This document shows positions 3,224 to 31,870 of a stretch of DNA of 64,000 nt, in pieces (the stretch's first letter is position 1; each line of letters opens with the position of its first letter). The notes below the pieces were generated by a model. The model did no database searches. It saw only the letters and a program-made list of their open reading frames with translations, and had not been told where the DNA came from. Location: positions 13,314 through 77,313 of IMG/VR virus record IMGVR_UViG_3300036803_000072. One strand, 5' to 3'. This DNA comes from a virus. Its lineage: Duplodnaviria > Caudoviricetes. Position numbers and translations under genes: made by a program.

Positions 3224-3421
3224 CTACCTTAGCCGGTCCGGGATGAAAGCCAACCCGATCGAATGCTTCCCATCTTCGGGGATCGGTGAACAGCACGCCG
3301 GGCACGGCATGCCCGCTCCGCCGCAGTAACAGGCCGCCGCGCAATCATGAAGATCACCCCACGGCTTGTCGGGGTGGTTCTCGCACACGTGGGCCTGATC
3401 GTGACAGTTCTCGCAGTACAT
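3224..3421 (-). CDS. Small Cys/His-rich protein
   Basis: ATG overlaps the TGA of the giant ORF; MYCENC...CENH...CYCGGAGMPCPACC. Confidence 0.6.
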   Translation of the reverse strand: MYCENCHDQAHVCENHPDKPWGDLHDCAAACYCGGAGMPCPACCSPIPEDGKHSIGLAFIPDRLR

Positions 3422-6400
3422 CAGCCCACCGTCGCCGCTGTGGGCTGCATCTGATACCCGGTGGCGGCCGTAACCCCGCGCGGACCGGCTTTCGACCCGC
3501 ACGACGGGCACGCCGTGGCCTTGCTATCACTACCAACGGGGACCTGGACGTCGTTGCCGCAGGCCGCGCACGGCCACACCTTGTGCATCACTCCGGAAGC
3601 GTCCATGACGTACCGGATGTCGGCGGCCACCGTGTCCGCGTAGGCCTCCTCATCGGGGTCCGGCTTGTCTTCCGGGTCCGGGGTGTCGGACCCCGACGCG
3701 GTTCGGGCCTTGATCTCCACGCCGAGCCGGGCGGCGCGCGACAAATCGAATGCGTCGATCACCATGTCTTCGATGGTCTTCTCCTCGGGCACGAGGTGAC
3801 GCTTCCACACGGCGTCGATCGCCGCCTTGTCCGCCTCTTCTCCCTTGCGAGCCTCCGCCCGGCGGGCTTCCTGGCGCTTCTCCCGTTCGGTGTAGTTCAG
3901 CTTGTAGTCGGACGGGTCGTAGCTGTATCCGCTCCACCGTTGCTGAAGCTGACCACTCCCCGTGCCCCACGGCAGGTCCAGGGCCTGGAGGTCGGCGAGC
4001 AGCGCGGCCGGGTCATCCACTGTCCCGGTCATGCCGGCGGGGCGCACGCTGACCCCGTCGGTGGTCATGAACACCTTCAGGTCACTAGCGTCGCCCATCG
4101 CGCCGAGCGCCCCATCGGGCGACGCGTAGGCCTTCCCGGAGGCTTGCGGGTTGACGAACTTCTGCAACACCACCTTGCCGGCCTTGTTATAGGTGGAACG
4201 GCCCATGTTGCCCACCGCGCGGGCGGCCCTACTGCGGGCCGCTGACACGTTCTCGTCGGCCTGGGTTGCTACCGGCCCGGTCGGTGCGGCCGTGTTCACT
4301 CCGTCGGCTTGGAGTTTCGCCTCCAGCCGGGCCGACTCTGCCCGCGCGGCCTTCAGCTCATCGGTCTTCGGGAAGGCCATCCCCACGCGGGTCTTCATCT
4401 GCGCCACCTCTGAGCGCAGGTGCGCGGCCCGGTCGTGAAAGCGGTCGCGGCGGTTCTCGAAGCTGTGCAAGCTGTACTCGATCTTCGCGATGGTGCCGAC
4501 ACCCAGCTTATTGACGTCCTCTTGCGACATGCCGGTGATCACACCGGGCACGTCCTCAAAGTAGAGGTCGACGTGCATGCGCTGCTCGCGGCCCTGGTAG
4601 GGCTTCGCCATCAGCGTGTGGCCACCGATCTGGGCGACCTGCACCGGGCGGGGCGACCCGTAGGCGTACCGGGCCCGGTCGATGACGTCACCCAGCTTGG
4701 TCTTCAGCTCCGTGGCGGCGTCGGCGCGCTTAGTGACATCCACACCGGCGATGGTGGCCCGGAAGTGATCCCCGCCGATCTCCGTGCGCCTCTTGATCGC
4801 CGCATCCATCACTTTCGCGTCCGCGTCGGCCCCGGCGGCGTTAGCGGTGTAAGACACGATGTCTTTTTCGAGGTTGGTTTGGGTGCGCTTGTGCACCCGT
4901 TCCAATTTCGACAGCTTCGCCACCGACGAGTCGGCCTTCGCTTTGGCCATCAGGTCCATGTTGCCGGTGGCCAGGGCCTTGACCTCGTCATAGGACAGAG
5001 CGGTGTCGCCGACGTCCTCGATCTCCCGGGCGTCGAGGTTCCCGCGCATGATCTGCTCGATGAACTTTTGTTTACGGGCCAGGGTTTGCCACATGTAGGC
5101 GTCGAATGAGCCTTCGGTGACGTACCGGTAGATCCCCACCGTGGTATTGGTGTTGCCCTGGCGCATGATCCGGCCGTCGCGCTGTTCCACATCGGCGGGG
5201 CGCCACGGGGCGTCGAGATGGTGCAGGGCCACCGCACGGCGCTGCACGTTCGTGCCGACCCCCATCTTCTCCGAGGATCCGACGAGCACGGAGATCGAGC
5301 CATTGCGGGCAGCGGCGAACATCTCCGCTTTCTGCACGTCGTTTTTCGCCTCGTGAATGAACCGCACCGACTTAGGGTCCATGCCCCGGGCGGCCAATTC
5401 GTCCCGCAGTTTCGCGTACGCGTTCCACTGCTCGGGATTGCCCGGTGTGCCCATGTCCAGGAACACCAGTTGCATCCCGCCGGGTGGCGGGTCGTCACCG
5501 GCATCAGGATTGTCGAGGTCTTTCGGCACGGGACGGTTTTTGTTGACCAGGTAGATCGCGTGGATCTTGTCGGCCGCGTCCTCGATCTTGCCCGTGGTGT
5601 GCTCGCCACCGACCAGGGCCATGCTCAGCGCGGCCTTGCGGCCATCACCGGAGATCTTGAGCATGTTGTCTTCCTCGGGCAGCACGGTGCGGTTGCGGAC
5701 CGCCTCGGCCCGCTCGCCCAGCTGCGCCACGTAAGCCCGCAGCTCCTCCGAGGGCTGCACCGTGACGTTCTGCACCGCACCGGTCTCCAGGGCCGGGGTC
5801 GGCAGGTTCAGATCCTCAGCGGTCTTGATGTCGGCGAAGACGTGGAACAGGCGCAGCAGCTCAGGCACGTTGCGGAACTTCGCGAATCGCGACGTCTGCC
5901 GGAAACCGATCCCCTCGGGCTTGAGCTCCATCTCCTCGACCACTTGACCGAATGTGGCCGCCCACTGGTCGAACGAATGGATGCCGGCCTCCTCTAGGAG
6001 GTCGGGGCGCATGAACCGTTGCATCACATACATTTGAGTGATGCTGTTGCGGATCGGGGTGCCGGTCGCGAACGTCGCCACCTTGCCCGACTGACTGCTA
6101 GCCCGCAGGTACTCCAATTTCATGTGCAGGTCGGTGGCCCGATCACTGCCCTCGATGGCGGCGCCCTGAATGTTGGACAGGGTCCGCAGGTTCGAGTACA
6201 TGTGCGCCTCATCGACCATGACATGGTCGATGCCGGTCTGGTCGAAGCTGACCCCGACATCCTTCTGCTTGTCGAGCTTCTTTTTCATCGCCTCCTCGGC
6301 GCGGATAACGGCCTTCTCCATTTTCTTGACCGTATTGTCGTGCGCCTTGCCCGACGCTGAGGAGGACTGCATGGCGAGCAGCTGGGCTCGCATCGTGGCG

Positions 6401-9400
6401 AGCTCGCGGTCGATGTAGGCCTTCTGCTGGTCTTTCGACATCGGGATGGCCTCGAACGCGCCCTGGGTGAGGATCACACAGTCCCAGTCGCCGGTGGCGG
6501 CGCGGGCAACGAACTCCCGGCGCCGGTCACCGTCGAGGTCTTTGGTGCCGGCGGCCAGGATCTTCGCCTGCGGGTAGGCCTCCAGGTACTCGCGGGAGAA
6601 CTGTTCGAGCATGTGGTTGGGGACCACGATGCTGGGCTTGTTGGCCAGGCCGAGCCGTTTGAGCTCGGCGCACCCCATGGCCATCTCTAGCGTCTTGCCG
6701 GCGCCCACCACGTGACCGAGTAGCGCGGCCGGTTCGGACACGATCCGTTCCACGGCCGCCACCTGGTGCGGGCGCGGCACTTTGGCGTCCGACATGCCGG
6801 GGAAGGCGCGTTCGGTGCCGTCGTAGCTGCGCAGCACGATCGCATTGAACCGATCGTTGTAGACGCCCTGAAGGCGCCGGGCGCGTGCCGGGTCCTCCCA
6901 CAGCCACTCGCTGAAGCGTTCCTGGATCTCCTCGCCCTTCGCCTGGGCGGCCAGGGTGTCTTCGAGGTTCGGGTAGGACTTGCCATCGATGGTGTCAACG
7001 ACCTTGATAGGTCGCTGCTCCAGCATCGCTTGCACGAGCTCGCCGAAAGACTTGCGGTCCGTGCCCCACTGCTCGGTGGCCGCCTTACCGTAGGACGGGG
7101 CGTCCACCGTCCAGATGCCACCACCGGAGGTGGCCACGTTCACACCGGAGTAGCGATCACTCCCGACGCCCAGCATCTCCTCGATGAACGCTTTGATGTC
7201 GGTCGGGCCGATCCACGCCGCGCCGAGCCGGCCGTCGATCTCGGCCGCACCGAGGTCCTCGGGTACGACTTTCTCCAGGGCCTTGACGTTGGCCTCGAAG
7301 CGCGGGTCGTGCTCCGCTGCGGCTTTGGCGACAGCCAGCTTGCGGCGTACGTTGCCGGACAGGTAGGCCGCTGCCGGCTCCAGGGAACCAGCCTCTTGCA
7401 CAGACTCGCCGACGGTGGACAGGTCTACGTCACCGGCAGTGAGATGGGTGTCGACCAGCAGTCCGCGCGCTTCGGCGTCGGCGGCCACGGCGGCGTTGGT
7501 TTCGGCGTCCGACAGCGGCGGCTGCTCGAAGATCAGGTCACCGAGTTGCGTGCGAGCACCAGCCTCATCGGTGCCCAGCATTTTCGCGATCGCCGGTAGG
7601 TCCACCCGACCGTAGGTGTCCATCGACAGGGCCAGCGCGTCTTTCGGATTGTCCGCCGTGGTCGGGATGACCCTCGGTGCGACCGTCCGCTTAGTGAAGA
7701 TGCTGGTCTTGTGACCCTTGCCGGTCTCCGGGTCGTAGGTTTCCAGCGCGCGCACAGTCGCCGACATCGGGTCGCGGCGGAACCCACCCTGACCGGGGGT
7801 GTTGCGGGCCCCGATCTTGCTCAGGGTGTAGCGGTTGATCGGCCCGTAGCGTTTCGCGTACGCGTCGTACTGGGCATTGAGGTCGGCCCGGAGTTGCTTG
7901 ATCTCCGGTGTGTTCGACACCGACGCGGCCTCAGCGGCGAGCAGTGAGGCCAGGGTGTCGCGCATGCCCATCAGGCCGCGCAACTCCTCTTTCTGCTTCT
8001 CCGGCACCTCGAACGGGACGGCGGCGCCGCCGTTGGCCTGAGTGAAGTTGCCGTCGGCGTCGACCCCGATGTGCCCCTCGTGCCGGGAGGTGTCCGGGTC
8101 GACGAGTGCCCCGTCACCGGCCAGGCGCGGGCTGGACGTCAGGCCCTGTTCTTTCGCGGCGTCGGTGATCCGGGCCAGCGCGTCAGGCAGATCGGCCATG
8201 GACTTGTCACCGATCACCCGGATCTCGCCGGTGCCGTACTGGCCGGGCTCGGCGTGCAGCTCACCGAGGATCTGATCGGGGTGCTCGGTAAAGTAGTCGT
8301 TGACCGGGACTGTCTCGCCGTCGATCTCCCGCTCGCTGGAGTTGATCCAGCCTTGCGGGGTTTGTGGTTCCGCACCCGGCTCCCGGCGCCGGAAAATGAG
8401 AATGTCCTCGATGACCGACGTGCCCGACGCGCGCTGATGGCTACCGGTGGGCAGGCGCACCGCGCCGAGCAGGTCACCCTTCTCGGCCAGGCGCTTGCGC
8501 GCCGCGCTGCCCTTGGAGTCCAGGGTGTAGCGGGAGGTCAGGACGGCGACGATGCCGCCGGGTTTGGTCAGGTCCAGGGATTTGGCGATGAAATGGTTGT
8601 GGATCGAGTCACCGGCGCGGTTGTGCAGCCGGTCGGTGAGCTTGAAGTCCCCGAAGGGGACGTTGCCGATGGTGGCGTCGAAGTGGCCGGTGGGGATGCG
8701 GGTGTCGGCGAAGGACTCGTTGCGGATGGTGGCGTTGGGGTACAGGGCGTGGGCGATGGCGGCGGTGGTGGAGTCGAGCTCCACCCCGACCATGTCGACG
8801 TTGCTCGGTGCGAAGCCGATGAAGTTGCCCGACCCGCTGCCCGGCTCCAACACCCGACCCCCGTCACTGAGGCCGAGATCCTGCACTGCCTTCCACATGG
8901 CCTGTACGGCGGTGGCGTCGGTGTAGTGGGCATTGAGGGTGTTGCGCTTGGCCTCGTTCCACTCCGAGTCGGACAGCAGGCCGCGCAGCTTGTCGCGGTC
9001 GGCCGCGTACTCGGGCTTCAGATCGTCGAAGACCTCAGGCAGGCCACCCCATCCGGCCCACCGGGCGAGGATCGCCTGCTCCTCGGGCGTGGCGGGGCGC
9101 TTGTCTTTTTGCAGCTCCCGCAGGGTTTCCAGGGCGGCGAGGTTGGCGTCGAGCTTCGCTTTCTTACCGGCGGGCGCGAGATCATCCATGCCACCGGGCT
9201 GGAATGACTGGGCGGCGTCGGGGATGGCGTCGACCGCGCCCGGTGTGGCTTCAGGCTGGGCTAGGTCAGGTTCGCCGGCCGGGGCGGCACTACCGGCATC
9301 GCTTCCCGCTGGCTGGCCGTCTGTTCCTGTGTCGCTTGATCCATCAGGAGTTGGAAGTCGCTCAGGGCCTCGGTCAGTTCGTTGTCCTCCGGTGTCGGTT

Positions 9401-12400
9401 TCTGCGGGGGCATGCTCGGGTCCGGTGTCGCCACCGGCGGGTAGTCGCTGTCCGGCCAGTCCGGGGGCGGTGAGCTCATCAGCGTTTCCCGCATCACCAG
9501 TTCGGTCGCTGCCTGCTCCGCTGCTTTCAGGCGTCCCAGCTTCTGGCTGAACGTCTCGTCGGGCGGGTCGGTCCCCGCCAGCGCGTCGGCCACCTGCTGT
9601 ATCTCCTGCTGCGCCCGGTCGCCCAGCTGGCCGAAGTACGTCGCCTTGTCCGCGATCTTGTCGTAGATCTGTGGCAGGTACTGCTGGTACCACTGGGCTA
9701 CCCTCGTCGCCAGTGGCCCCATGGTGGGCGTCGTCATGGGCCGATTGTGCACCCTGATCGGCGAGTCGCCAGTTGGCTTCGCTGTCGCGTTTCGCATCGA
9801 CTTCTTTCAGGATCTCGTCTACGGCGTCGTCGTCATCAGCGGCGAGCAGTCGAGCCTCTAGGGCGTGACACTCTTCCGGGTCACCGTCGACCCCCATTTC
9901 TCGCAACGCTTTGCGCAGCTTCAGCCGGTGCCCGTCGCGCACGGCATCGATGGCATCGTGCCGTGCATCGAGGTAGCCGTCCTGAAGTGAGGGTCGCCCC
10001 GACTCGTCAATGACGCGGGCAACATCGACTTTCGGCGCCGTTCCGGTCGTACTGGGTAAGGCGATCAAACCGAGGCGCCGCGCTTCCGGCGCCGCTTCGA
10101 TCTCGGTAGCGCGCTCACGGGGATTGTCGTGGCCCATGGTTCGCAGGGCGCGCACGAGGGCGCCGTGGTCACCGGAGCGCGCGGCGGCTACAGCTGCGGC
10201 GTGGGCGTCTTGGATGGCGCTGTGCGCGTCGGCGGCTTCCCCGTTGGCCTGATCGCGGGCTGAAGCGTTGGCCTGCCGGGCGGTGCGGCGCTCGGTCGAG
10301 TCGGCGGGGGGGCCGGTCCGGTCGGCGGCGCCGGGCTTGACGGCGCCCATGCGGGCACGGTGCGCGTCGTAAGCGTCCGGCGCGGGCTTCACCTTGCCGG
10401 CGGTCTCCCGGCGGCGCAGCTCCGTCTCGACGGAGCCGAGCAGGGCCTTGATCCGATCCCGTTCGATGCGCTTAGCGACCCGACGCACTTTGGCGTTCGC
10501 GTTGCGCTTGACGCGGCGTTCCTCGCGCAACCCGCCAGCGGCGGCGAACAGCATGCCGGGCTTGAGCTCCCCGCGCGCGATGGCGCCGTGGATGTCGTCC
10601 CCGATGACCCTATGAAGGTCATTGAACGCTTTGCTGTCGGCCGGGACGCGGCGCAACAACTTCGCCAAACGGTCCGCCGCTGCCTTCACCGCAGCGGGGT
10701 CGGAGTCTTTCGTATTGAGCAGGTCACCGAGGTCTTCGGCGGCCCCGGCGACACCGGGGCGCAATTTCGGGCCGGTATCCTCACCCTGCCCGGCCGGGTC
10801 GGAAGTCGCCCCCGACCCCCCCGACCCGGCCGGGGCCTTCAGCGATGTACCGGCCTCGCGCTTGCGGGCGGTGTCGCGGCGAGCCAGCTCCGTCTGGAGA
10901 GCCAGTTCGTCGGTGAGATCTTTTTGGGTGGTGTGCAGCTGCGGCGTGGTCTGTCCGACTAGTGCCGCTTCGCCCGCTTGCAAGGCGGCTTCGACGCGGT
11001 CTTGCCGGGCGGCGACCTCCTCCGTAACCTCGATCGTGCCGTCGGGGTCTTCGCTGATACCCAACGCCTTATCCCGGACCTCGGCGGCGCGGTCTTGCAC
11101 GTCGGGTGGCACGGGCACCGCGTCGGTGGGGATCTCCGACGCGGGCCTGCCTTGCGGCTGCACAGCGGCGACGGCGGCGCGCTTGCGCTTCTCATCCCCG
11201 AAGATCTTCTCGGCCATCTTCGAGTCGGAATACTCAGTCGAGGTCTTCGGCAGATTGTTTCCCCGTGCACGGGCGTGCCGCGCTTCCGCTGCCGCGTGCT
11301 CGGCTTCGAGCTGGTCGTCGGTCAGCTTCTCCGGCGCATTCATGTTGCCGGTGGGCACGTACGGGCCATCAGCGCGGGTGCCGCCACCGGGCTTGCCGAC
11401 CTGCTCACGGGCGTGCTGCTCGACGGTGGCCTGATCATCGGGCTGCGGGGTGCCGGTAGTGATCCGGGAATGCGCCGCCTGGGCGGCCTGATCGGTCACC
11501 GGGACGGCGGCCGGTGCGTTCACCCCGGGCGGCGCGTTCGGCGGCGCACCGGGCTTACTGGGGGGCGGGGCGACACCGCCGGGCGCTTGCCCCGGCTTAC
11601 CCGCGCCAGCGGCGGGGTTCGCCGCGTTGGCGATCTTGTCGAGGCGTTGCTGCGCCACCTCGGTGGGCAGCACGAGCAGGGTGGCGGCAACGTCGTGCGG
11701 ATCCTGGTCTTTGCTCAAACCCATCCGGGTCAGGGCGTCGGCGAGCTCATCGCGGTTGCCGTCACTGATCGCGCCCTCGGCGTCGTACCGGGCCTGGGCG
11801 GCGTCCGCCGATGGCATGCCTTTCGGTGCCGGGGTCGCGCCCAGGGCGGTGCCGATCGTGGCGGCCTGGGAATGCTTGGTGATGATCGCGGTAACCGAGT
11901 CCTGGTCGGCCTTCCTCGCCGCCGGGTCCGCCCACCGCTTCTTACGGGCCGCCATGTCATCCCAGGGGATGCCGAGACCGGCGATCTCGGTCAGCGCAGC
12001 CTCGACCTGATCAGGCGGGGTGTCGGTCGGCAGCATCGGCAGGGGTGAGCCGTTGGCCGTGTCGACGATCACCCAGCCCTTGCCGTTGTTCACGGCCGCG
12101 ATCTGGGAGTCCGGGGAGGCGAGCACGTTGGCGCCGGGACGGGTGAACTGGGCGAGCATGTTGGCGCTGGCGATCGCGCCGACACTGGCGACACCGCCGG
12201 GGGTGGTGTCGACGGCCTTCAGCTCGGAGATCCGCTCACCGAGGTGCGCGATCGCAGTAGCGGAGGCGTCGGTCGCACCGGACGTGTGACCGGGCAGCGC
12301 GTGACCGCCTGGTCGGTCACCGGGCGGGGGTGGTGGGCCGGCGGCGTTCGCACCCGAAGGTCGCTGTCCGGTGACCGGATGGGTGAGTTTGTGGCTGTCC

Positions 12401-13200
12401 TGCGCCGCGACGGTGGTGTGACGGATCTCGTCGTCGGTGGCGGGTCGGTCCAGGCCATGGGGTTTCGTGCCGGGCCTGATCGGCGTGCCGATAGGCATGC
12501 CCCAGAACTTCGCGTCGCGAACAGTACGCACTTTGACTTCGATCCCCTCGACGGTGGCTAGACCGGAACGAGGGTCATCGTACCACGTGTCGCCGTCGGC
12601 GGTCTCCGTTTGGAGGGATTTCACTCCAGTCAGATGTGCGAGCCGATGCGCGCCGTGCAATACCTGAGAAAACTCATACACATCGTAGTCGCTGAGGTAG
12701 CGTTTCCCGCCGCGCATTTTCGCGCCGCCGGGCCGCACCTTATAGCCAATCGAGAATGACTGCTCGGGACCGTAGAACTTCGCGTTCTCATAGGCGTCCC
12801 GGCCCGCCGTAGTGGCCAAGTTGTAGCGGGCCTTAACGAGCAGTCCGCCAGCGTTGGCGGGCCACGGGGCACCGTCGGGGGTCGTCTTCGGTAGCCGATC
12901 GTCGCCAGGCATGAGCTCAACCGCCCATTCCGCGCGCGAGACCGGGACCTTCCAGTCGTGCGAGTCGACACCCTTAGGCTTCAGCCGCTTGACGGCCACA
13001 CCCAGGGAACCGGGCACGATGACGTCACCGACCTCATCGCCGACGCCGGACACCGCAACCAGCGCGGTGATGGTGCCCTCTTTGTCGTCATGGCCGATGA
13101 CCCCGGTCATCGGTGAGGACGTCTCGCCCGTCGGCAGCGCCTTCCACTCCAGCTGACCGATGTCAGCCGGGCACGTGTCGAGGTCTTCGGTGGTGGTCAC
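3421..13200 (-). CDS. Giant polyvalent protein: HK97-type prohead protease + low-complexity/repeat cargo region + N6-adenine DNA methyltransferase + SNF2-like helicase (DarB-like)
   Basis: Protease about 13110-12619 (SHD His, SFSIGY Ser); MTase VLEPGSGSGNF (about 8821-8853) and GNVPF (about 8652-8670); helicase GHVVGAGKT (about 6691-6718), VDEAH (about 6200), ATGTP, QRDGRIMRQGN (about 5152-5190); 3259 codons without a stop. Confidence 0.9.
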   Translation of the reverse strand: MTTTEDLDTCPADIGQLEWKALPTGETSSPMTGVIGHDDKEGTITALVAVSGVGDEVGDVIVPGSLGVAVKRLKPKGVDSHDWKVPVSRAEWAVELMPGDDRLPKTTPDGAPWPANAGGLLVKARYNLATTAGRDAYENAKFYGPEQSFSIGYKVRPGGAKMRGGKRYLSDYDVYEFSQVLHGAHRLAHLTGVKSLQTETADGDTWYDDPRSGLATVEGIEVKVRTVRDAKFWGMPIGTPIRPGTKPHGLDRPATDDEIRHTTVAAQDSHKLTHPVTGQRPSGANAAGPPPPPGDRPGGHALPGHTSGATDASATAIAHLGERISELKAVDTTPGGVASVGAIASANMLAQFTRPGANVLASPDSQIAAVNNGKGWVIVDTANGSPLPMLPTDTPPDQVEAALTEIAGLGIPWDDMAARKKRWADPAARKADQDSVTAIITKHSQAATIGTALGATPAPKGMPSADAAQARYDAEGAISDGNRDELADALTRMGLSKDQDPHDVAATLLVLPTEVAQQRLDKIANAANPAAGAGKPGQAPGGVAPPPSKPGAPPNAPPGVNAPAAVPVTDQAAQAAHSRITTGTPQPDDQATVEQHAREQVGKPGGGTRADGPYVPTGNMNAPEKLTDDQLEAEHAAAEARHARARGNNLPKTSTEYSDSKMAEKIFGDEKRKRAAVAAVQPQGRPASEIPTDAVPVPPDVQDRAAEVRDKALGISEDPDGTIEVTEEVAARQDRVEAALQAGEAALVGQTTPQLHTTQKDLTDELALQTELARRDTARKREAGTSLKAPAGSGGSGATSDPAGQGEDTGPKLRPGVAGAAEDLGDLLNTKDSDPAAVKAAADRLAKLLRRVPADSKAFNDLHRVIGDDIHGAIARGELKPGMLFAAAGGLREERRVKRNANAKVRRVAKRIERDRIKALLGSVETELRRRETAGKVKPAPDAYDAHRARMGAVKPGAADRTGPPADSTERRTARQANASARDQANGEAADAHSAIQDAHAAAVAAARSGDHGALVRALRTMGHDNPRERATEIEAAPEARRLGLIALPSTTGTAPKVDVARVIDESGRPSLQDGYLDARHDAIDAVRDGHRLKLRKALREMGVDGDPEECHALEARLLAADDDDAVDEILKEVDAKRDSEANWRLADQGAQSAHDDAHHGATGDEGSPVVPAVPATDLRQDRGQGDVLRPAGRPGAAGDTAGGRRAGGDRPARRDVQPEAGTPESSGAGSDRTGDAGNADELTAPGLAGQRLPAGGDTGPEHAPAETDTGGQRTDRGPERLPTPDGSSDTGTDGQPAGSDAGSAAPAGEPDLAQPEATPGAVDAIPDAAQSFQPGGMDDLAPAGKKAKLDANLAALETLRELQKDKRPATPEEQAILARWAGWGGLPEVFDDLKPEYAADRDKLRGLLSDSEWNEAKRNTLNAHYTDATAVQAMWKAVQDLGLSDGGRVLEPGSGSGNFIGFAPSNVDMVGVELDSTTAAIAHALYPNATIRNESFADTRIPTGHFDATIGNVPFGDFKLTDRLHNRAGDSIHNHFIAKSLDLTKPGGIVAVLTSRYTLDSKGSAARKRLAEKGDLLGAVRLPTGSHQRASGTSVIEDILIFRRREPGAEPQTPQGWINSSEREIDGETVPVNDYFTEHPDQILGELHAEPGQYGTGEIRVIGDKSMADLPDALARITDAAKEQGLTSSPRLAGDGALVDPDTSRHEGHIGVDADGNFTQANGGAAVPFEVPEKQKEELRGLMGMRDTLASLLAAEAASVSNTPEIKQLRADLNAQYDAYAKRYGPINRYTLSKIGARNTPGQGGFRRDPMSATVRALETYDPETGKGHKTSIFTKRTVAPRVIPTTADNPKDALALSMDTYGRVDLPAIAKMLGTDEAGARTQLGDLIFEQPPLSDAETNAAVAADAEARGLLVDTHLTAGDVDLSTVGESVQEAGSLEPAAAYLSGNVRRKLAVAKAAAEHDPRFEANVKALEKVVPEDLGAAEIDGRLGAAWIGPTDIKAFIEEMLGVGSDRYSGVNVATSGGGIWTVDAPSYGKAATEQWGTDRKSFGELVQAMLEQRPIKVVDTIDGKSYPNLEDTLAAQAKGEEIQERFSEWLWEDPARARRLQGVYNDRFNAIVLRSYDGTERAFPGMSDAKVPRPHQVAAVERIVSEPAALLGHVVGAGKTLEMAMGCAELKRLGLANKPSIVVPNHMLEQFSREYLEAYPQAKILAAGTKDLDGDRRREFVARAATGDWDCVILTQGAFEAIPMSKDQQKAYIDRELATMRAQLLAMQSSSASGKAHDNTVKKMEKAVIRAEEAMKKKLDKQKDVGVSFDQTGIDHVMVDEAHMYSNLRTLSNIQGAAIEGSDRATDLHMKLEYLRASSQSGKVATFATGTPIRNSITQMYVMQRFMRPDLLEEAGIHSFDQWAATFGQVVEEMELKPEGIGFRQTSRFAKFRNVPELLRLFHVFADIKTAEDLNLPTPALETGAVQNVTVQPSEELRAYVAQLGERAEAVRNRTVLPEEDNMLKISGDGRKAALSMALVGGEHTTGKIEDAADKIHAIYLVNKNRPVPKDLDNPDAGDDPPPGGMQLVFLDMGTPGNPEQWNAYAKLRDELAARGMDPKSVRFIHEAKNDVQKAEMFAAARNGSISVLVGSSEKMGVGTNVQRRAVALHHLDAPWRPADVEQRDGRIMRQGNTNTTVGIYRYVTEGSFDAYMWQTLARKQKFIEQIMRGNLDAREIEDVGDTALSYDEVKALATGNMDLMAKAKADSSVAKLSKLERVHKRTQTNLEKDIVSYTANAAGADADAKVMDAAIKRRTEIGGDHFRATIAGVDVTKRADAATELKTKLGDVIDRARYAYGSPRPVQVAQIGGHTLMAKPYQGREQRMHVDLYFEDVPGVITGMSQEDVNKLGVGTIAKIEYSLHSFENRRDRFHDRAAHLRSEVAQMKTRVGMAFPKTDELKAARAESARLEAKLQADGVNTAAPTGPVATQADENVSAARSRAARAVGNMGRSTYNKAGKVVLQKFVNPQASGKAYASPDGALGAMGDASDLKVFMTTDGVSVRPAGMTGTVDDPAALLADLQALDLPWGTGSGQLQQRWSGYSYDPSDYKLNYTEREKRQEARRAEARKGEEADKAAIDAVWKRHLVPEEKTIEDMVIDAFDLSRAARLGVEIKARTASGSDTPDPEDKPDPDEEAYADTVAADIRYVMDASGVMHKVWPCAACGNDVQVPVGSDSKATACPSCGSKAGPRGVTAATGYQMQPTAATVG
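9261..9737 (-). CDS. Nested TnpV-like protein overprinted in another frame of the giant gene
   Basis: This frame has strong GC3 bias while the giant-ORF frame is AT3-rich and R/G/P/A-biased here; WYQQYLPQIY...YFGQLGDRAQQEI...ETFSQKLGRLKAAEQAATELV resembles actinobacterial TnpV-like proteins; CACAAT 6 nt before ATG 9737. Confidence 0.72.
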   Translation of the reverse strand: MTTPTMGPLATRVAQWYQQYLPQIYDKIADKATYFGQLGDRAQQEIQQVADALAGTDPPDETFSQKLGRLKAAEQAATELVMRETLMSSPPPDWPDSDYPPVATPDPSMPPQKPTPEDNELTEALSDFQLLMDQATQEQTASQREAMPVVPPRPANLT

Positions 13201-14951
13201 CCGGTCACCGGCGCGTCGAACAGGTTCGGCTCCGCCATCTCCGCACCGTCCACTGTGGCCGTTCCGGAAACGTCCGCGACGTCCTCCATTGTGGATTCAG
13301 GCGCGGGGTCGGCGATCATTCGAGCCCCTAGGGCGGCGTGCTGGGCGGTGGCCAACAGGTCAGCCGTAGTGTCGTCGGCGTCACCCTGGGCGTCGTCAGG
13401 GATGTCGCCCAGCTGCTCCTCCAGGGCGGCGAGGTAGTCGGCCACGTAGGGCTCATCGAAGACCTGACCCCAGTCGTCGACCCCGGCGTGCAGCGCGGCG
13501 AGCTCGGCGTCGGTGTCATCTATCGCCATCGCCACGGCCTTGATCTCGACATCTTCGGGCCAGACCAGGGCCTTCGCACCCACTACGCGGCCCATGTTCA
13601 TCGACCGGCCGACGTTGCCGCGCGCGGTGTGCGCGTACTTACCGGGCCATTCACCCGTGGCCATCTTGTGAATGTTCGCGGTGAGTCCATTAAGAACGCG
13701 CGGGGAATGCACATACTTAGCCAGGTGCCGGCGCAGGCGCTTGAAATCCCCGCCGCTACCCGGACGCCATTTTGCGCGTCCTTTCCCGTAAGCCCAGTAA
13801 TTGCGCAGTTTCGCCGCACGCGGATCCGGTGAAGCGATCTTCACCTCGACGTCGTCTTCGAGAGACTTCTCGCCGGGCTTGTCGGGCTCGCCGGAGTCGT
13901 CGTCACCGTCGTGGTCGGGATCCAGGGCGTCGATACGGTCGTGGATGACCTGTGGGGCGTACAGCCGGTGCGCTTCGGACTTCAGGTGCGCCTTGAGCTT
14001 GTGCTTGTCCCCCGGTCGGGCGTCATGGAACTTATCGATCTCGTCTTTCAGGTCCTCGGAGTTCTGCACCGGGTGACGGTTGGTGCGCCCGTCTAAGGTG
14101 TGCCCGGTCTTGCGCAGCCCGTTGCGCTCGTGCCCGGACATGGCCCGCTTGACCTCGATGTCGTCGACATCATCGGCCTCGACGCTCTCGGCGCGTTTGG
14201 CTTCGATCTCACCCGCGCGGTCGCGCATGTCGCCGGCCCACGCGGCACCCACGTCCCCGCAATGTTCGGCCACCCAGTCCACGCCGCGCGAGTTAAGGGC
14301 CTTGCCCTCAGCGACCAGGGCGGCGACCGGGCCGGGCAGAATCGCGGCCACCTCGCACACCACCTGCGGCGGGGTGAAAGTGACCTCACCGGACTTCGTT
14401 TCGGTGATCACGGGTGCCTCCTGATTGCCGAGCGGTATGTCGAGCACGTCGCCGGCCAGGGCCAGGCGCAGCGTGCCGAAGCGAACGGGGCCGGTGTAGG
14501 TCTGCGCCGAGACTCCAGCTGCTGAGTCGTCGGGGTCCACGGCCACCGTGACGTGAGGCAGGAATGGTTCGTGTTGCGGTGGCGGGTCGGGGTAGTCGTC
14601 ATAGGTGCTGGTCGTCCAGCTCGCCCACGTGCGCAGCGCACCCAGTCCCGGTGCGTCGCTGACCATGAGCACGAGACAGGGGGTGCGGTCACCGTCGGGC
14701 CCGCCATCGGGATTGAACAGCGCGGGTCCGATGATCCGGGCGTCCACCGGATCGAGACTCGGTGCGGATGCGGTCACCAGCTGGCGGAGCCGGTCACCGG
14801 CACTGGCAGGCCAGGTGGTGACGTCATCACCGAGATAGAGCAGGGTCAGGTGCAGTTCGCTGGCCGGCTCGCCACCGTCCAGCGCCAGAACGGCAGGGTT
14901 GTCGGGGACCAGTGCAAGCATACCGCCGGTGTGCTGCGGGCTATCGACCAT
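13197..14951 (-). CDS. Multidomain head-associated protein: 2H phosphoesterase + DUF6582-like + conserved actinophage head-cargo domain
   Basis: Two HxT motifs (HLT aa34, HVT aa133); ERNGLRKTG...HPVQNSEDLKDEI DUF6582-like segment; LRNYWAYGKG.AKW..G..GDFKRL...NIHKMATGEWPG domain; stop overlaps the GTG of the giant gene. Confidence 0.78.
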   Translation of the reverse strand: MVDSPQHTGGMLALVPDNPAVLALDGGEPASELHLTLLYLGDDVTTWPASAGDRLRQLVTASAPSLDPVDARIIGPALFNPDGGPDGDRTPCLVLMVSDAPGLGALRTWASWTTSTYDDYPDPPPQHEPFLPHVTVAVDPDDSAAGVSAQTYTGPVRFGTLRLALAGDVLDIPLGNQEAPVITETKSGEVTFTPPQVVCEVAAILPGPVAALVAEGKALNSRGVDWVAEHCGDVGAAWAGDMRDRAGEIEAKRAESVEADDVDDIEVKRAMSGHERNGLRKTGHTLDGRTNRHPVQNSEDLKDEIDKFHDARPGDKHKLKAHLKSEAHRLYAPQVIHDRIDALDPDHDGDDDSGEPDKPGEKSLEDDVEVKIASPDPRAAKLRNYWAYGKGRAKWRPGSGGDFKRLRRHLAKYVHSPRVLNGLTANIHKMATGEWPGKYAHTARGNVGRSMNMGRVVGAKALVWPEDVEIKAVAMAIDDTDAELAALHAGVDDWGQVFDEPYVADYLAALEEQLGDIPDDAQGDADDTTADLLATAQHAALGARMIADPAPESTMEDVADVSGTATVDGAEMAEPNLFDAPVTG

Positions 14952-18438: not shown

Positions 18439-18746
18439 AATACCATTCCGGCAACTACGTCGGCGCTGACGAGATCGGTGCGTGGCTTGGCCGCTCCGGT
18501 GCGTGGATTCGACTGCTGCGACAGCAAGACAGCAAATACGCAATTCCCTGCCCCGTGCCACTGCCCGAACCGGACATGCTCACCGAGAAGCGCCGCCGAC
18601 GCGGGGAAAGCATCGCGTTGTGGCGTCGTGATCGCCTGCCCGAGTTTGAGGAGTGGTTCCGGGCGCACGTCCGCACGCTGGCCGAGCAGGAGATCGCCAC
18701 CATGGAAGCCAACGTGGCCCGCATGAAGCAGACGGAGACATCGTGA
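18435..18746 (+). CDS. Putative HTH DNA-binding protein (AlpA/excisionase-like)
   Basis: YVGADEIGAWLGRSGAWIR...LPEPD...LWRRDRL.EFEEW pattern. Confidence 0.55.
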   Translation: MKYHSGNYVGADEIGAWLGRSGAWIRLLRQQDSKYAIPCPVPLPEPDMLTEKRRRRGESIALWRRDRLPEFEEWFRAHVRTLAEQEIATMEANVARMKQTETS

Positions 18747-21700
18747 CCAGCTCGTTTGTTCATTGCCACGTCCATTCGGACTGCTCCATGCTCGACGGCG
18801 CCGCCCGACTGCCCGACCTGATGACCGAAGCAGTCCGGCTCGGCATGCCCGCACTGGCCATCACCGACCACGGCAACGTCTTCGGCGCCTACGACTTCTG
18901 GAAAGCGGCCCGCGCCGCCGGCATCAACCCGATCATCGGCATGGAAGGCTACGTCGCCCCCGGCTCCCGGCACGAACGCACCCGCGCCACCCTGGACGGG
19001 ACGACGGTCGATGACTCGAACCCCGGCGAGATGTACACCCACATGACGTTGCTCGCCGAGACCACCGAGGGCATGGGCAACCTGTTTCGACTGTCGTCAC
19101 TGGCCAGCCTGGAAGGCTTCTACTACAAACCGCGCATGGACCGGGAGCTGCTCGAAACCTACTCGAAGGGGATCATCGCCACCACCGGATGCCCATCCGG
19201 GGAGGTCAACCGCCTCTTGCAGCGCGGCGACTATAAAGCCGCATGCCAGGCCGCCAGCGACTACCGCGACATCTTCGGGGCCGAGAACTACTACTGCGAG
19301 CTCATGGATCACGGCATCGATGTCGAGCGCGGCGTCAAGCGAGACCTGATGCGACTCGCCCATGATCTGAACCTGCCGCTGCTGGCGACCAACGACCTGC
19401 ACTACGTGCGCGCACAGGACGCGAAGCCACACGACGCACTGCTGTGTGTCCAGACTAAGAAGACCATCGCCGACCAGAACAGGTTCCGTTTCGAGGGGCA
19501 GGAGTTCTACCTAAAGTCCGCCGAACAGATGCGGGCACTGTTCGATGACGGCGACTTCCCGGGGGCGTGCGACAACACGCTCGCCATCGCGGCCCGCTGC
19601 CACGTCGAGTTCGACGAGGGCGCCGACCTCATGCCCCGGTTCCCGGTACCTGATGGCGAGACCGAGGCCAGCTGGCTTCTCAAGGAAGTTAACCTCGGTC
19701 TCGCCCGTCGCCTTCCCCGCGACGTCCCCGCAGAATACCGCGCCCGGCTCGATGCCGAGCTCGACCTGATTCTGCGCATGGGCTACTCCGGTTACTTCCT
19801 GGTCACCGCCGACTTGATCCGTCACGCGAAGTCCATCGGCATCCGCGTCGGACCCGGTCGTGGCTCTGTCGTCGGCTCCCTGGTCGCCTACGCCCTGGGC
19901 ATCACCGAACTGGACCCGATCGTTCACCGTCTGCTGTTCGAGCGGTTCCTGAACCCGGAGCGACCCTCGACGCCCGACATCGACCTCGACTTCGACGAAC
20001 GCCGCCGAGGCGAAGTGATCGACTATGTTACCGGCAAATACGGTGCCGACCGGGTCGCCCAGATCGTCACCTACTCCACGATCAAAGCCCGCGCGGCGGT
20101 GAAAGACGCAGCGAAAGTCCTGCACGGGGCAGCCGGTTTCGCCCTCGCCGACCGGATCAGCAAGGCCATGCCCCCGCCGATCATGGGCAAGGACATCCCG
20201 TTGACCGGCATCTTCGACCCCGACCACAAGCGGTACGGCGAGTCGGCCGCCGTGCGCGCCCTGTACGACAACGACGCGCAGGTCAAAGAGGTCATCGACA
20301 CGGCGCGCGGACTGGAGGGCCTGAAGCGGCAGTGGGGAGTGCACGCCGCTGGTGTCATCGTTTCCCGCCTCCCCCTGCTCGATGTTGTCCCCATCCACCG
20401 GCGCCCAGCCGACGGGGCGATCATCACTCAGTTCGACATGTGGGCGTGCGAAGCCCTCGGTCTGGTCAAAATGGACTTCCTGGGTTTACGGAACCTGACG
20501 ATCATTGACGATTGCCTGGCGGGGATCGCAGCCAGCGGCAAACCCGTCCCCCTACTGGAGACCTTGCCGCTGGATGACCCCGGCGTCTACCAGCTGCTCG
20601 CGCGCGGCGACACCCTGGGCGTCTTCCAGCTCGACAGCGGCCCCATCCGTGACCTACTGCGCAAGATGGGGCCAACCCACTTCGGGGACATCTCCGCCTG
20701 CAACGCCCTGTACCGGCCCGGGCCGATGGCGGCCAACGCGCACAACGACTACGCCGACCGGAAAAATCACCGACAGCCGGTCAAACCCATCCACCCGGAG
20801 CTCGCCGAGCCACTGGCCGACATCCTCGACGAAACCTATGGCCTGATTGTCTACCAGGAGCAGGTACTGGCCATCGCCCAACGGGTCGCCGGGTACTCCC
20901 TGGGGCGGGCGGATCTGCTGCGCAAGGCGATGGGTAAAAAGATCCGGGCGGTGCTCGACCGAGAATACGGGCCCTTCGCTGACGGCATGGCGGCCTCCGG
21001 CTACTCCCCAGGCGCTGTCAAGGCGCTGTGGGACATCCTGATCCCGTTCTCCGACTACGCGTTCAACCGAGCCCATACCGCAGCCTACGGGCTGATCGGC
21101 TACTGGACGGCGTACCTGAAAGTGCATCACCCTGTGGAATACATGGCGGCCCTGCTCACCAGTGTCGGTGACGACAAAGACCGCAGCGCGATCTACCTGG
21201 CGGAGTGCCGCCACATGGGCATCACCGTGCTGGTGCCCGATGTGAACGCCTCGGGTGCGCACTTCACTGCCGACGGCGTCGACATCCGCTTCGGCCTCTC
21301 GGCGGTGCGCAACGTCGGGGCGGGCGCGGTCGAAGCGATCATCGCCGGTCGAGTCGACGGCCCGTACACCAGCATCGCCGACTTCCTGCGCCGAGTACCC
21401 GCTTCGGCGTGCAACAAGGGCGCGGTCGAGTCCCTGATCAAAGCGGGCGCGTTCGACTCCCTGGGATACGCACGCTGCGGCCTGCACGGTGCGTGCGCGG
21501 CGGTGATCGCAGCCGCGCGACCGAAAGGCAAACGGGCCGGGCAGGGTGACCTGTTCGCCGAAGGCGCGTTCGACGTCGACATTCCCACCGCACAGTGGGA
21601 CACCCCGGTCCAGCTCGCCCACGAGCGCGACATGCTCGGCCTCTACGTCTCCGCCCACCCCCTCGACAGCGTTGCCCCGATGCTGGCGACACAAGGGGGC

Positions 21701-22222: not shown

Positions 22223-22388
22223 GCTGCGGCATCAGGATAGTGTCGACCATCCGAGCGAAATGCCATTCCTCGCACCATCTTTGCGCGCTCCTGACCATCA
22301 TCGGCCCGTTGGGAGCCTTCAGCCAGACCTCCTCACTGGGCGGAAGGTCATGGAAGGGGCACTCCTGTGCCTCGTCAGACGTGGTCAT
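22068..22388 (-). CDS. Possible small protein coupled to the MuF gene
   Basis: ATG overlaps the MuF stop (ATGA); first 65 aa look protein-like; the 3' end overlaps dnaE on the other strand. Confidence 0.35.
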   Translation of the reverse strand: MTTSDEAQECPFHDLPPSEEVWLKAPNGPMMVRSAQRWCEEWHFARMVDTILMPQLIRLIQEGDLYSGPPTDRPAAPPAGAAGELRPVRPAAATPHYSLGWPPVLS

Positions 22389-31849: not shown

Positions 31850-31870
31850 GAAAGGAAAGGCAAGACCACC

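What the first reader, a model, noticed from the sequence alone, without database searches (positions are those of the whole stretch)
9261..9737. TnpV-like gene overprinted inside the giant ORF: trace of a read-through fusion
Seen: across 9737-9261 an alternative minus-strand frame has strongly GC-ending codons and a folded-looking sequence. The giant-protein frame here uses AT-ending codons and reads as R/G/P/A-rich linker. A CACAAT hexamer sits 6 nt before the ATG, the same spacing as other apparently leaderless genes in this window. The DarB-like MTase begins right after the nested stop and has no obvious start of its own. From recollection, TnpV-like genes often precede MTase-SNF2 genes in mobile elements. 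Inference: a two-gene plasmid cassette was captured into a head-cargo gene by reading through the small gene in another frame, and both proteins may still be made.
Basis: partly seen in the sequence, partly recalled or inferred. Interest (0 to 1): 0.8.

Follow-up and report, generated by a model that had tools for sequence, protein, structure and literature searches.

The report
TnpV-like gene nested in giant gene
A real small gene (TnpV-like) is written one base out of step inside a 3,259-codon phage head-protein gene, and the same gene-within-a-gene layout is kept by selection in about 30 actinobacterial plasmids, conjugative elements and phages, so it is an old, shared design rather than a recent phage accident.

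Summary
Between 9737 and 9261 (minus strand) GC3 of the giant ORF's frame falls to 0.39-0.55, while the +1 frame rises to 0.80-0.94.

The +1 frame encodes a 153-158 aa protein with these properties:
- 324 homologues, mostly free-standing small proteins.
- A confident helical model (pLDDT 88.9).
- dN/dS of 0.2-0.4.

It is TnpV-like only below threshold. The window's copy does not hit PF14198. Relatives score 14-25 bits against a cut-off of 27. PGAP names the plasmid homologues "TnpV protein".

The giant frame reads the same DNA as a Gly/Ala/Asp/Pro-rich linker. That linker joins an HK97-type prohead protease module to a DarB-like methylase-helicase that has no start codon of its own.

In 29 of 30 intact loci the large gene is in the -1 frame and has no stop across the small gene (about 43 expected over 23 loci). 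These loci are plasmids, ICEs and phage contigs. In plasmids and ICEs the large gene already starts 80-100 nt upstream of the small gene. One Streptomyces plasmid shows the truly unfused form.

A complex prediction supports binding of the small protein to the large one (0.73; best control 0.18).

Other agents of this scan had already noted the same nesting in Firmicutes. I found no paper describing it.

The parts
3421..13200 (-). Giant polyvalent gene (3259 aa, GTG start overlapping the stop of the upstream gene as GTGA): prohead protease module, variable middle, overprinted linker, DarB-like methylase-helicase.
   Evidence: ORF list. GC3 of 0.8-0.95 outside the overlap. phrog_10089 'DarB-like antirestriction' E=0 on the C-terminal 1945 aa. 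Homologous giant ORFs of 3580-3660 aa in L002/L003. Start context.
12421..13200 (-). N-terminal HK97-family prohead protease-like module. It is the probable route into the capsid.
   Evidence: Homologues at 42-55% identity carry PF04586, and one is named 'HK97 family phage prohead protease'. ESM Atlas neighbours are Peptidase_S78 clusters, score 0.92. There is no direct Pfam hit. The gene lies between portal/MuF/protease-like genes and the major head protein gene.
9261..9737 (-). Nested TnpV-like gene in the +1 frame of the giant gene. The first ATG is at 9737, the homology-supported ATG at 9722, and the TAG at 9263-9261. The product is 158 or 153 aa.
   Evidence: GC3 of 0.80-0.94. 324 homologues at E<=1e-3, aligning from residue 6. 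Family alignment with invariant P17/E56. AF2 pLDDT 88.9, five helices. dN/dS 0.33-0.39 overall and 0.21-0.24 in the first 90 codons.
9262..9738 (-). The same DNA read in the giant frame (giant residues about 1155-1314): a low-complexity G/A/D/P/R/T-rich linker.
   Evidence: Translation and composition. Apparent dN/dS of 1.3-1.9 in this frame. No stops here or in any related phage-type locus, against 1.9-4.4 expected per locus. T-ending codons of the nested gene are 0.7%, against 7.4% in the flanking gene.
9742..9753 (-). Conserved DNA block GGTGCACAATCG (CACAAT at 9749-9744), where homology among phage-type relatives begins. It is a candidate -10 element of an internal promoter. In the window it sits 6 nt before ATG 9737, which would give a leaderless mRNA.
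   Evidence: Alignment of the window, L002 and L003. Also conserved in L028 and L006, where the transcript would carry a short leader with a Shine-Dalgarno motif. The exact pattern is unique in the window. A sigma-70 scan finds nothing. Function is inferred only.
9130..9207 (-). First conserved motif of the DarB-like part (SFQPGGMDDLAPAGKKAKLDANLAAL). It starts about 18 codons after the nested stop and has no usable start codon in front of it.
   Evidence: The motif is conserved in all plasmid, ICE and phage relatives.
5155..8721 (-). N6-adenine methylase (about 8721-8479) and SNF2/ResIII/Helicase_C helicase core (about 6780-5155) of the DarB-like part.
   Evidence: Pfam hits at or just below threshold: Eco57I, ResIII, SNF2-rel_dom and Helicase_C. 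PHROG hits for DNA methyltransferase and helicase.
7684..7836 (-). Region of the large protein (residues 475-525 after the nested stop) predicted to contact the conserved face (residues 38-69) of the nested protein.
   Evidence: complex prediction score 0.73 against best control 0.18. The runs agree in at least 44% of contacts, and the partner's pLDDT is at least 58. The region holds invariant residues F493, R494, P497, A504, L505, K517, I520 and F521.

Best explanation
The stretch is a true dual-coding segment.

Frame 1 belongs to the giant gene, translated from GTG 13200. It uses these 460-480 bases as a disordered linker. The linker ties an HK97-type prohead protease module, and so a place inside the capsid, to a DarB-like methylase/SNF2-helicase. 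That part has no start codon of its own.

Frame 2 is shifted by +1 and is a complete gene for a small helical TnpV-like protein. It is started independently inside the big gene. In the window the likely route is a leaderless transcript from the conserved CACAAT element, starting at ATG 9737 or ATG 9722. In relatives there is a short leader with a Shine-Dalgarno motif.

The small protein most likely works as a partner subunit that binds the large protein between its methylase and helicase parts.

The nesting is inherited from the plasmid/ICE cassette, where the large gene also begins upstream of the small gene. Lineages differ only in the N-terminal module placed in front: a short QLSLxDL peptide, a DnaG-primase domain, or the phage prohead protease.

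Shown: both frames are intact, the nested protein is under purifying selection, and stops in the host frame are selected against across the family. Inferred: actual translation of both frames, the promoter, the binding, and virion packaging.
For: Nested gene is real:
- GC3 switches between frames.
- 324 homologues, mostly free small proteins, and a coherent family alignment.
- pLDDT 88.9.
- dN/dS of 0.21-0.39 in the nested frame, against 1.3-1.9 in the host frame over the same bases.

Host frame is kept open by selection:
- 29 of 30 intact loci have no stop in the -1 frame across the small gene, while the +1 frame has 1-11 stops.
- Using each locus's own codon usage, 42.9 stops are expected over 23 loci and none is seen.
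- The one unfused control, L033, has 4 stops against 2.1 expected.
- T-ending codons are depleted in the nested gene.

Host frame is coding on both sides of the small gene:
- Protease homologues at the N-terminus.
- A DnaG core at E 3e-10 in the N-extension of L008.
- A conserved N-peptide with a TCC<->AGC serine codon switch and a Shine-Dalgarno motif.
- In-frame indels upstream of the small gene between close relatives.
- No start codon before the conserved DarB-like motif.

Other support:
- Independent assemblies and runs agree.
- Predicted binding scores 0.73 against a best control of 0.18. That mark was reached by 58 of 80 solved complexes and 2 of 110 mismatched pairs.
- Identities of the small and large proteins co-vary (Spearman 0.60 over 190 non-independent pairs).
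Against: - No expression data exist for either frame.
- The window's copy has no Shine-Dalgarno motif before either ATG, and the simple promoter scan finds nothing.
- The nested frame's dS (0.35, 0.16) is only slightly below flanking dS (0.38, 0.21). Apart from stop avoidance there is no extra constraint from the host frame.
- The loci are not phylogenetically independent, so the combined probability is overstated.
- A GTG in the giant frame inside the overlap (about 9690) could allow a shorter DarB-like product.
- PF14198 does not match the window's protein.
- The complex score is a model's confidence, not a measurement.
Confidence: 0.75

Rival explanations
1. One reading: an unfused two-gene plasmid cassette (tnpV-like gene, then helicase gene) was captured by a phage. 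Only then was it fused to a head gene by reading through the small gene.
For: An unfused form exists. In L033 (Streptomyces plasmid) the host frame has 4 stops and the large gene has its own ATG overlapping the small gene's stop. The codon-usage contrast shows the nested frame is the dominant, presumably older, reading. RefSeq usually annotates two separate genes.
Against: In 22 plasmid, ICE and genomic loci the host frame is open through the small gene. It carries a conserved start, peptide or primase domain upstream of the small gene. Annotated starts cut off the conserved N-terminal motif in L022, L023 and L027, and the called start does so in L009. So the read-through predates the phage.
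Confidence: 0.1
2. The long frame is open only because of G+C-rich codon usage, so the giant ORF is a compositional accident. The protease-module gene, the small gene and the DarB-like gene would then be three separate genes.
For: In high-GC3 genes the -1 frame is often open. For some loci the chance of no stop is 0.5-0.8.
Against: The upstream module has no stop codon, so a ribosome must continue into the linker. There is no start codon for the DarB-like part. For phage-type loci the chance of no stop is 0.00-0.14 each, and about 43 stops are expected across the family with none seen. Indels upstream are all in frame.
Confidence: 0.06
3. Programmed -1 ribosomal frameshifting at the end of the small ORF fuses the TnpV-like domain to the methylase-helicase. 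The small ORF would then be the true N-terminus of the large protein.
For: The large gene is in the -1 frame relative to the small gene in all loci with an assignable large gene except the frameshifted L011. A few database proteins join the two in frame, such as P0270.
Against: No X XXY YYZ slippery heptamer occurs in the last 60 codons of any of 16 loci. P0270 ends in frameshifted sequence, which is typical of indel errors. Frameshifting would not require the host frame to be open through the whole small gene, nor a conserved peptide upstream of it.
Confidence: 0.04
4. The segment is a selfish insertion that the host gene reads through, like the ShiLan element with its hidden out-of-frame HNH endonuclease in actinophage methylase genes (PMC11855218).
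For: Homology among phage-type relatives starts sharply at GGTGCACAATCG. The nested stop is followed by CC (TAA/TAG-CC) in most loci, which recalls the TAAC end of ShiLan. The host frame reads through as a loop or linker.
Against: The nested protein is not a nuclease. It sits at the same site in 29 of 30 loci, co-diverges with the large protein and is predicted to bind it. In L033 it is an ordinary upstream gene.
Confidence: 0.04

Closest known systems
Rz/Rz1 spanin genes of phage lambda (Rz1 wholly embedded in the +1 frame of Rz); from my own knowledge, not tested here
   Same: A complete small gene lies entirely inside a larger gene on the same strand in the +1 frame. Both products are made and they bind each other.
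   Different: Here the overlap is much longer (about 460 nt). The host frame over the overlap is only a disordered linker. The host is a 3259-aa polyvalent enzyme. The pair is shared by plasmids, ICEs and phages. Binding is only predicted.
ShiLan domain: out-of-frame HNH endonuclease hidden in an actinophage DNA methylase gene (PMC11855218)
   Same: It occurs in an actinophage methylase-type gene. The host frame reads through an inserted segment without stops. A complete gene sits in another frame with no obvious ribosome-binding site, and leaderless initiation is proposed.
   Different: ShiLan is a sporadic homing element that encodes a nuclease. The TnpV-like gene is near-universal in its family, co-diverges with the host gene and is predicted to be its partner.
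TnpV of Tn4451/Tn4453 (Pfam PF14198)
   Same: A small helical protein of mobile elements. Relatives of the window's protein have PF14198 as their best Pfam hit, collinear over profile positions 18-111. PGAP names the plasmid homologues 'TnpV protein'.
   Different: All scores are below the family cut-off (14-25 bits against 27). The window's own copy gives no hit. This is a divergent actinobacterial branch. No function is known for TnpV itself.
P1 DarB and the methylase-helicase dyad of polyvalent proteins (Iyer et al. 2017, PMC5512222)
   Same: An adenine methylase fused to an SF2/SNF2 helicase behind a conserved N-terminal domain, within a multidomain protein of phages and conjugative elements. 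The gene lies among head genes. phrog_10089 matches at E=0.
   Different: The paper does not mention TnpV, overlapping genes or frameshifts. The carrier module here is a prohead protease. Packaging and anti-restriction activity are untested.
comS inside srfAB of Bacillus subtilis (own knowledge, not tested here)
   Same: A small out-of-frame gene is nested in a giant multidomain gene.
   Different: comS is 46 codons and lineage-specific. Its product does not act on the host protein.

Membership tests
TnpV (Pfam PF14198) | Match to the family HMM at or above the gathering score (27 bits) | tested here: not met
   The window's ORF gives no hit at E<=10. Relatives score 14.3-25.4 bits with E from 1.5e-5 to 0.04, all below 27. 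12 of 44 family members hit at E<=1.
TnpV (Pfam PF14198) | Small (about 110-160 aa) all-helical protein encoded on plasmids, transposons or ICEs | tested here: met
   The product is 153-158 aa and the model has five helices. Homologues lie on 55 actinobacterial plasmids and on ICEs with T4SS genes.
Same-strand nested (embedded) overlapping gene pair | Both reading frames intact over the whole overlap, in this sequence and in diverged relatives | tested here: met
   Intact in 29 of 30 loci.
Same-strand nested (embedded) overlapping gene pair | Purifying selection on the embedded frame | tested here: met
   dN/dS of 0.33-0.39, or 0.21-0.24 in the conserved 90 codons. The family's invariant residues are retained.
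Same-strand nested (embedded) overlapping gene pair | Host frame kept open more than composition explains | tested here: met
   42.9 stops expected and none observed over 23 loci. The unfused control L033 has 4. T-ending codons are depleted.
Same-strand nested (embedded) overlapping gene pair | Both products detected in cells | not testable with these tools
   No RNA or proteome data could be examined.
DarB-like methylase-helicase dyad / polyvalent protein | N6-adenine methylase fused to an SF2 (SNF2-type) helicase in one polypeptide | tested here: met
   phrog_10089 E=0 and phrog_11801 E=1e-197. Pfam Eco57I, ResIII, SNF2-rel_dom and Helicase_C score at or just below their cut-offs.
DarB-like methylase-helicase dyad / polyvalent protein | Encoded among late/head genes and delivered with the DNA (virion protein) | tested here: inconclusive
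   The gene sits between portal/MuF/protease-like genes and the major head protein gene, and carries a prohead protease module. Packaging itself cannot be tested here.
HK97-family prohead protease (Peptidase_S78, PF04586) | HMM match or clear homology to family members | tested here: inconclusive
   No direct PF04586 hit. However, homologues at E 1e-31 to 1e-45 carry PF04586, and one is named as a prohead protease. Atlas neighbours score 0.92.
Programmed -1 ribosomal frameshift site | Slippery heptamer X XXY YYZ near the end of the upstream ORF | tested here: not met
   None found in the last 60 codons of 16 loci.
ShiLan-type read-through insertion with a hidden homing endonuclease | Embedded gene encodes a nuclease, and the element is sporadically present among close relatives | tested here: not met
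   No nuclease family is hit. The segment is present at the same site in all intact relatives.

The most novel reading that the evidence does not exclude
Across plasmids, ICEs and phages of Actinobacteria (and, by other agents' notes, Firmicutes), the methylase-helicase anti-restriction gene and its small TnpV-like partner are deliberately encoded in one stretch of DNA. The partner's coding sequence doubles as the flexible tether through which interchangeable delivery modules are attached to the enzyme. Those modules are a clamp-binding-like peptide, a primase, or a prohead protease. The partner then binds the enzyme it is nested in. Recombination therefore can never separate the two.
Probability: 0.45. 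Interest if true: 0.8.

Novelty: new variant of a known kind. Interest (0 to 1): 0.66.

Why it matters
Long, fully nested same-strand gene pairs with evidence of selection on both frames are rare in bacteria and phages. This one is conserved across a whole family of mobile-element anti-restriction genes.

It shows that public annotation of these genes is systematically wrong. Either the small gene is dropped, or the large gene is started too late and loses a conserved motif and its N-terminal module.

It gives TnpV, a protein with no known function since the 1990s, a concrete and testable role as a partner of the methylase-helicase.

It also shows how a disordered overprinted linker lets different delivery modules be bolted onto the same enzyme, including a prohead protease that would carry it into a capsid.

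Tried and rejected
- **Direct family scans.** Pfam, PHROG and NCBIfam scans of the nested protein gave nothing useful. PF14198 and PF04586 searched over the whole virus record gave no match.
- **Phage collections.** blastn and tblastn of the region and of the nested protein against cultured phages found no match. A viral-contig scan with the nested protein alone found none.
- **Fold search.** Foldseek of the model against the PDB gave no match at E<=0.001.
- **Promoter scan.** The sigma-70 scan found no site.
- **Leaderless-gene pattern.** CACAAT-N6-RTG as a shared signature occurs only once in the window.
- **Frameshifting.** No slippery heptamers were found.
- **In-frame fusions.** In-frame TnpV-helicase proteins such as P0270 look like indel artefacts and were not used.
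- **Sequencing runs.** No RNA holder was listed for this stretch, so nothing can be said about expression.
- **Conservative null.** A synonymous shuffle that keeps each gene's own codons gave P(no stop) of 0.16-0.90 per locus. It is weak because T-ending codons are already depleted, so a null based on the flanking gene's codon usage replaced it.
- **Disrupted loci.** L014, L018 and L019 are frameshifted or truncated copies and were left out of the tallies. L036 had too short a reference for the null.
- **Literature.** Searches for TnpV with helicase and overlapping genes found no description of this layout.

Full report
**1. What is in the sequence**

The window is part of a 77-kb IMG/VR virus record with 66% G+C. 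The largest ORF runs from GTG 13200 to 3421 on the minus strand and encodes 3259 aa.

A sliding GC3 plot shows its frame at 0.8-0.95 everywhere except about 9780-9261. There it falls to 0.39-0.55 and the +1 frame rises to 0.80-0.94.

That +1 frame is open from 9797. It has ATGs at 9737 and 9722 and ends at TAG 9263-9261. Over the same bases the giant frame reads a peptide that is 86% G/A/D/P/R/T/S/E and 7.5% hydrophobic.

**2. The nested frame is a real gene**

- phmmer against 1.8 billion representatives finds 324 proteins at E<=1e-3. Nearly all are free-standing proteins of 90-190 aa, and they align from query residue 6, which is ATG 9722.
- The family alignment has a clear signature: LP..Y..I.D...FF..LG.......I..L...LAG.D.PGE.YL.K.GRL..A...AEE.V.
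- AlphaFold2 with this alignment gives pLDDT 88.9 and five helices. No solved structure resembles the model.
- Within the phage lineage the nested frame has dN/dS of 0.33-0.39, and 0.21-0.24 in its first 90 codons. The giant frame over the same bases gives 1.3-1.9, and the flanking methylase gives 0.07-0.14.

**3. Is it TnpV?**

The window's protein does not hit PF14198, even at E<=10. Relatives do have TnpV as their best Pfam hit, collinear over profile positions 18-111. Their scores are 14-25 bits, below the 27-bit cut-off.

PGAP names many plasmid homologues 'TnpV protein'. I therefore call it TnpV-like and do not file it as a Pfam member.

**4. The giant gene is a head-module polyvalent gene**

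PHROG hits place it among head genes:
- portal, 24675-26405
- MuF-like head morphogenesis, 22385-24712
- a protease-like/2H gene, 13197-14951
- major head protein, 1152-2585

Its last 1945 aa match phrog_10089 'DarB-like antirestriction' at E=0, along with methylase and SNF2/ResIII/Helicase_C families.

Its first 260 aa have homologues at 42-55% identity that carry PF04586. One is named an HK97-family prohead protease. ESM Atlas neighbours agree at 0.92. The HMM itself does not match.

This fits the polyvalent proteins of Iyer et al. 2017 (PMC5512222). That paper does not mention TnpV or overlapping genes.

**5. It is not an assembly artefact**

- Three IMG/VR contigs (L002-L004) carry giant ORFs of 3580-3660 aa with the same nested ORF ending at the same place. 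L002 and L003 are about 120 kb; L004 is a 19.6-kb contig with the same sequence as L003 from a different sample.
- Short contigs L005-L007 and L028-L030 show the same layout.
- Contigs of independent soil runs bridge both junctions without a net frameshift.

**6. The giant frame is kept open by selection**

Upstream of the conserved block GGTGCACAATCG the relatives differ strongly. Even the closest relative, L028, differs by an in-frame indel of about 100 aa. Yet every junction stays in frame and free of stops.

No ATG, GTG or TTG precedes the first conserved motif of the DarB-like part.

T-ending codons make up 0.7% of the nested gene against 7.4% of the flanking gene. Given the flanking codon usage, the chance of no stop in the giant frame is 0.00-0.14 for each phage-type locus.

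**7. The nesting is not a phage invention**

Homologues of the small gene sit on actinobacterial ICEs beside T4SS genes, in genomes and MAGs, and on 55 plasmids.

In every intact locus but one, the large helicase gene is in the -1 frame relative to the small gene, and that frame has no stop across it. The +1 frame has 1-11 stops.

Over 23 distinct loci, 42.9 stops are expected from each locus's own codon usage, and none is seen. The loci are related, so the combined probability is overstated. Several lower-GC lineages alone expect 3-6 stops each.

In ICE and plasmid loci the large frame has a start codon with a Shine-Dalgarno-like motif 80-100 nt upstream of the small gene. It is followed by a conserved peptide, M-A-RRRR-x-(I/V)EGQLS(L/F)(D/E)D(L/F). 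The serine in that peptide is coded by TCC, TCG or AGC in different loci, which points to protein-level selection.

In Micromonospora plasmids the same frame instead carries a DnaG-primase core in front of the small gene (PF08275, E 3e-10).

RefSeq is inconsistent about these genes:
- NZ_CP108881 annotates one 2502-aa 'helicase' reading through the small gene.
- pA58H2 annotates 'TnpV protein' plus 'helicase-related protein'.
- In L022, L023 and L027 (and in the automatic call for L009) the annotated start lies after the conserved F.P..Q.DLAPS..ANLAAL motif.

The one exception, L033 (Streptomyces sp. NBC_00015), has 4 stops in the -1 frame. Its large gene has its own ATG overlapping the small gene's stop. 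This is the truly unfused form. It also serves as a control showing that the frame is not open automatically.

**8. How the small gene is started**

Relatives L002, L003, L006, L007 and all ICE loci have a Shine-Dalgarno motif 6-10 nt before the start.

The window and L028 have none. In them ATG 9737 lies exactly 6 nt after CACAAT. This hexamer is conserved in five phage-type lineages at the point where homology begins. The geometry fits a leaderless transcript in the window and a short leader in the others.

This is inference. The simple promoter scan finds nothing, and the exact pattern is unique in the window.

**9. What the small protein may do**

Folding the nested protein together with the first 600 aa after its stop gives ipSAE 0.73 (three runs: 0.70-0.73) against a best control of 0.18. 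That mark was reached by 58 of 80 solved complexes and 2 of 110 mismatched pairs. The runs share at least 44% of contacts, and the partner's pLDDT is at least 58.

The interface joins the most conserved part of the small protein (residues 38-69) to a block of invariant residues at 475-525 of the large one. Identities of the small and large proteins co-vary (Spearman 0.60).

I read the small protein as a partner subunit of the methylase-helicase. This is supported by the model but not shown.

**10. Rivals**

- **Chance open frame.** The missing stop, the missing start and the family-wide stop avoidance argue against it.
- **-1 frameshifting.** It has no slippery site and would not need the whole frame open. 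The few in-frame fusions look like indel errors.
- **A ShiLan-like read-through insertion (PMC11855218).** This is the nearest published analogue. However, the nested gene is not a nuclease, sits at the same site in 29 of 30 loci, and co-diverges with its host gene.

**11. Relation to earlier notes of this scan**

After I reached these conclusions, I looked up the scan's notes. Other agents report tnpV nested in the +1 frame of polyvalent methylase-helicase genes in at least 28 Firmicute genomes. I did not test those reports.

If they hold, the layout spans two phyla. This window adds three things: the actinobacterial branch, the unfused control, and a phage version whose N-terminal module is a prohead protease. 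Another first-reader note on the protease fusion agrees.

**12. Verdict**

The proposed history is wrong, because the nesting is ancestral to the cassette.

Apart from the ShiLan analogue, I found no paper describing this layout.

Noticed in passing
L009:9904-10000, L010:9898-10000, L012:1018-1108, L017:3922-4000, L023:2368-2452, L035 (about 1390-1485): The large gene of ICE and plasmid loci begins with a conserved peptide, M-A-RRRR-x-(I/V)EGQLS(L/F)(D/E)D(L/F). From memory, QLSLxxL/F resembles the beta-sliding-clamp binding motif, which Hda carries at its N-terminus. The phage giant protein lacks it.
   Followed up: partly
L008:8680-9999; L020:5713-7000; L024:1162-2467: Micromonospora plasmids carry an N-terminal extension in the large frame before the nested gene. 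In L008 it is about 440 aa and contains a DnaG-primase catalytic core (PF08275, E 3e-10), which would give a primase-linker-methylase-helicase protein; the L020 and L024 extensions were not scanned. PGAP annotates it as one 2502-aa helicase in L020 but leaves 1.2 kb unannotated in L008.
   Followed up: partly
L033:1495-3372 (NZ_CP108308.1 204316-234710): In Streptomyces sp. NBC_00015 the tnpV-like gene is not nested. The other frame has 4 stops. It is followed, with the ATG overlapping its stop, by a 29.9-kb CDS annotated 'UvrD-helicase domain-containing protein'.
   Followed up: partly
L022:7387, L023:2965, L027:3010, L009:10480: Annotated or called start codons of the large gene fall after its conserved F.P..Q.DLAPS..ANLAAL motif. 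These public gene models are therefore probably truncated at the 5' end.
   Followed up: yes
window 9780-10080 (-) compared with L028:1-225: The closest relative (84% identical nested protein) lacks about 100 codons that the window has just upstream of the nested gene. The indel is in frame and the flanks are homologous.
   Followed up: partly
window 9347-9374: A contig of run X4 (depth about 4.6) differs from the window by two compensated +1/-1 indel pairs, each 4 nt apart, inside the nested gene. Both frames are restored within one or two codons.
   Followed up: no
window 13197-14951 (-): The gene upstream of the giant ORF overlaps its GTG start as GTGA. It hits the PHROGs 'head maturation protease' (profile positions 397-611 of 861) and 'RNA ligase'. 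Another first-reader note reads it as a 2H phosphoesterase head cargo.
   Followed up: no
window 18653-22222 (+) and 31850-34000 (+): A family-A-type DNA polymerase gene (phrog_405, E=0) sits on the opposite strand inside the head-gene block. An FtsK/SpoIIIE-like (TraB-type) gene lies further on.
   Followed up: no
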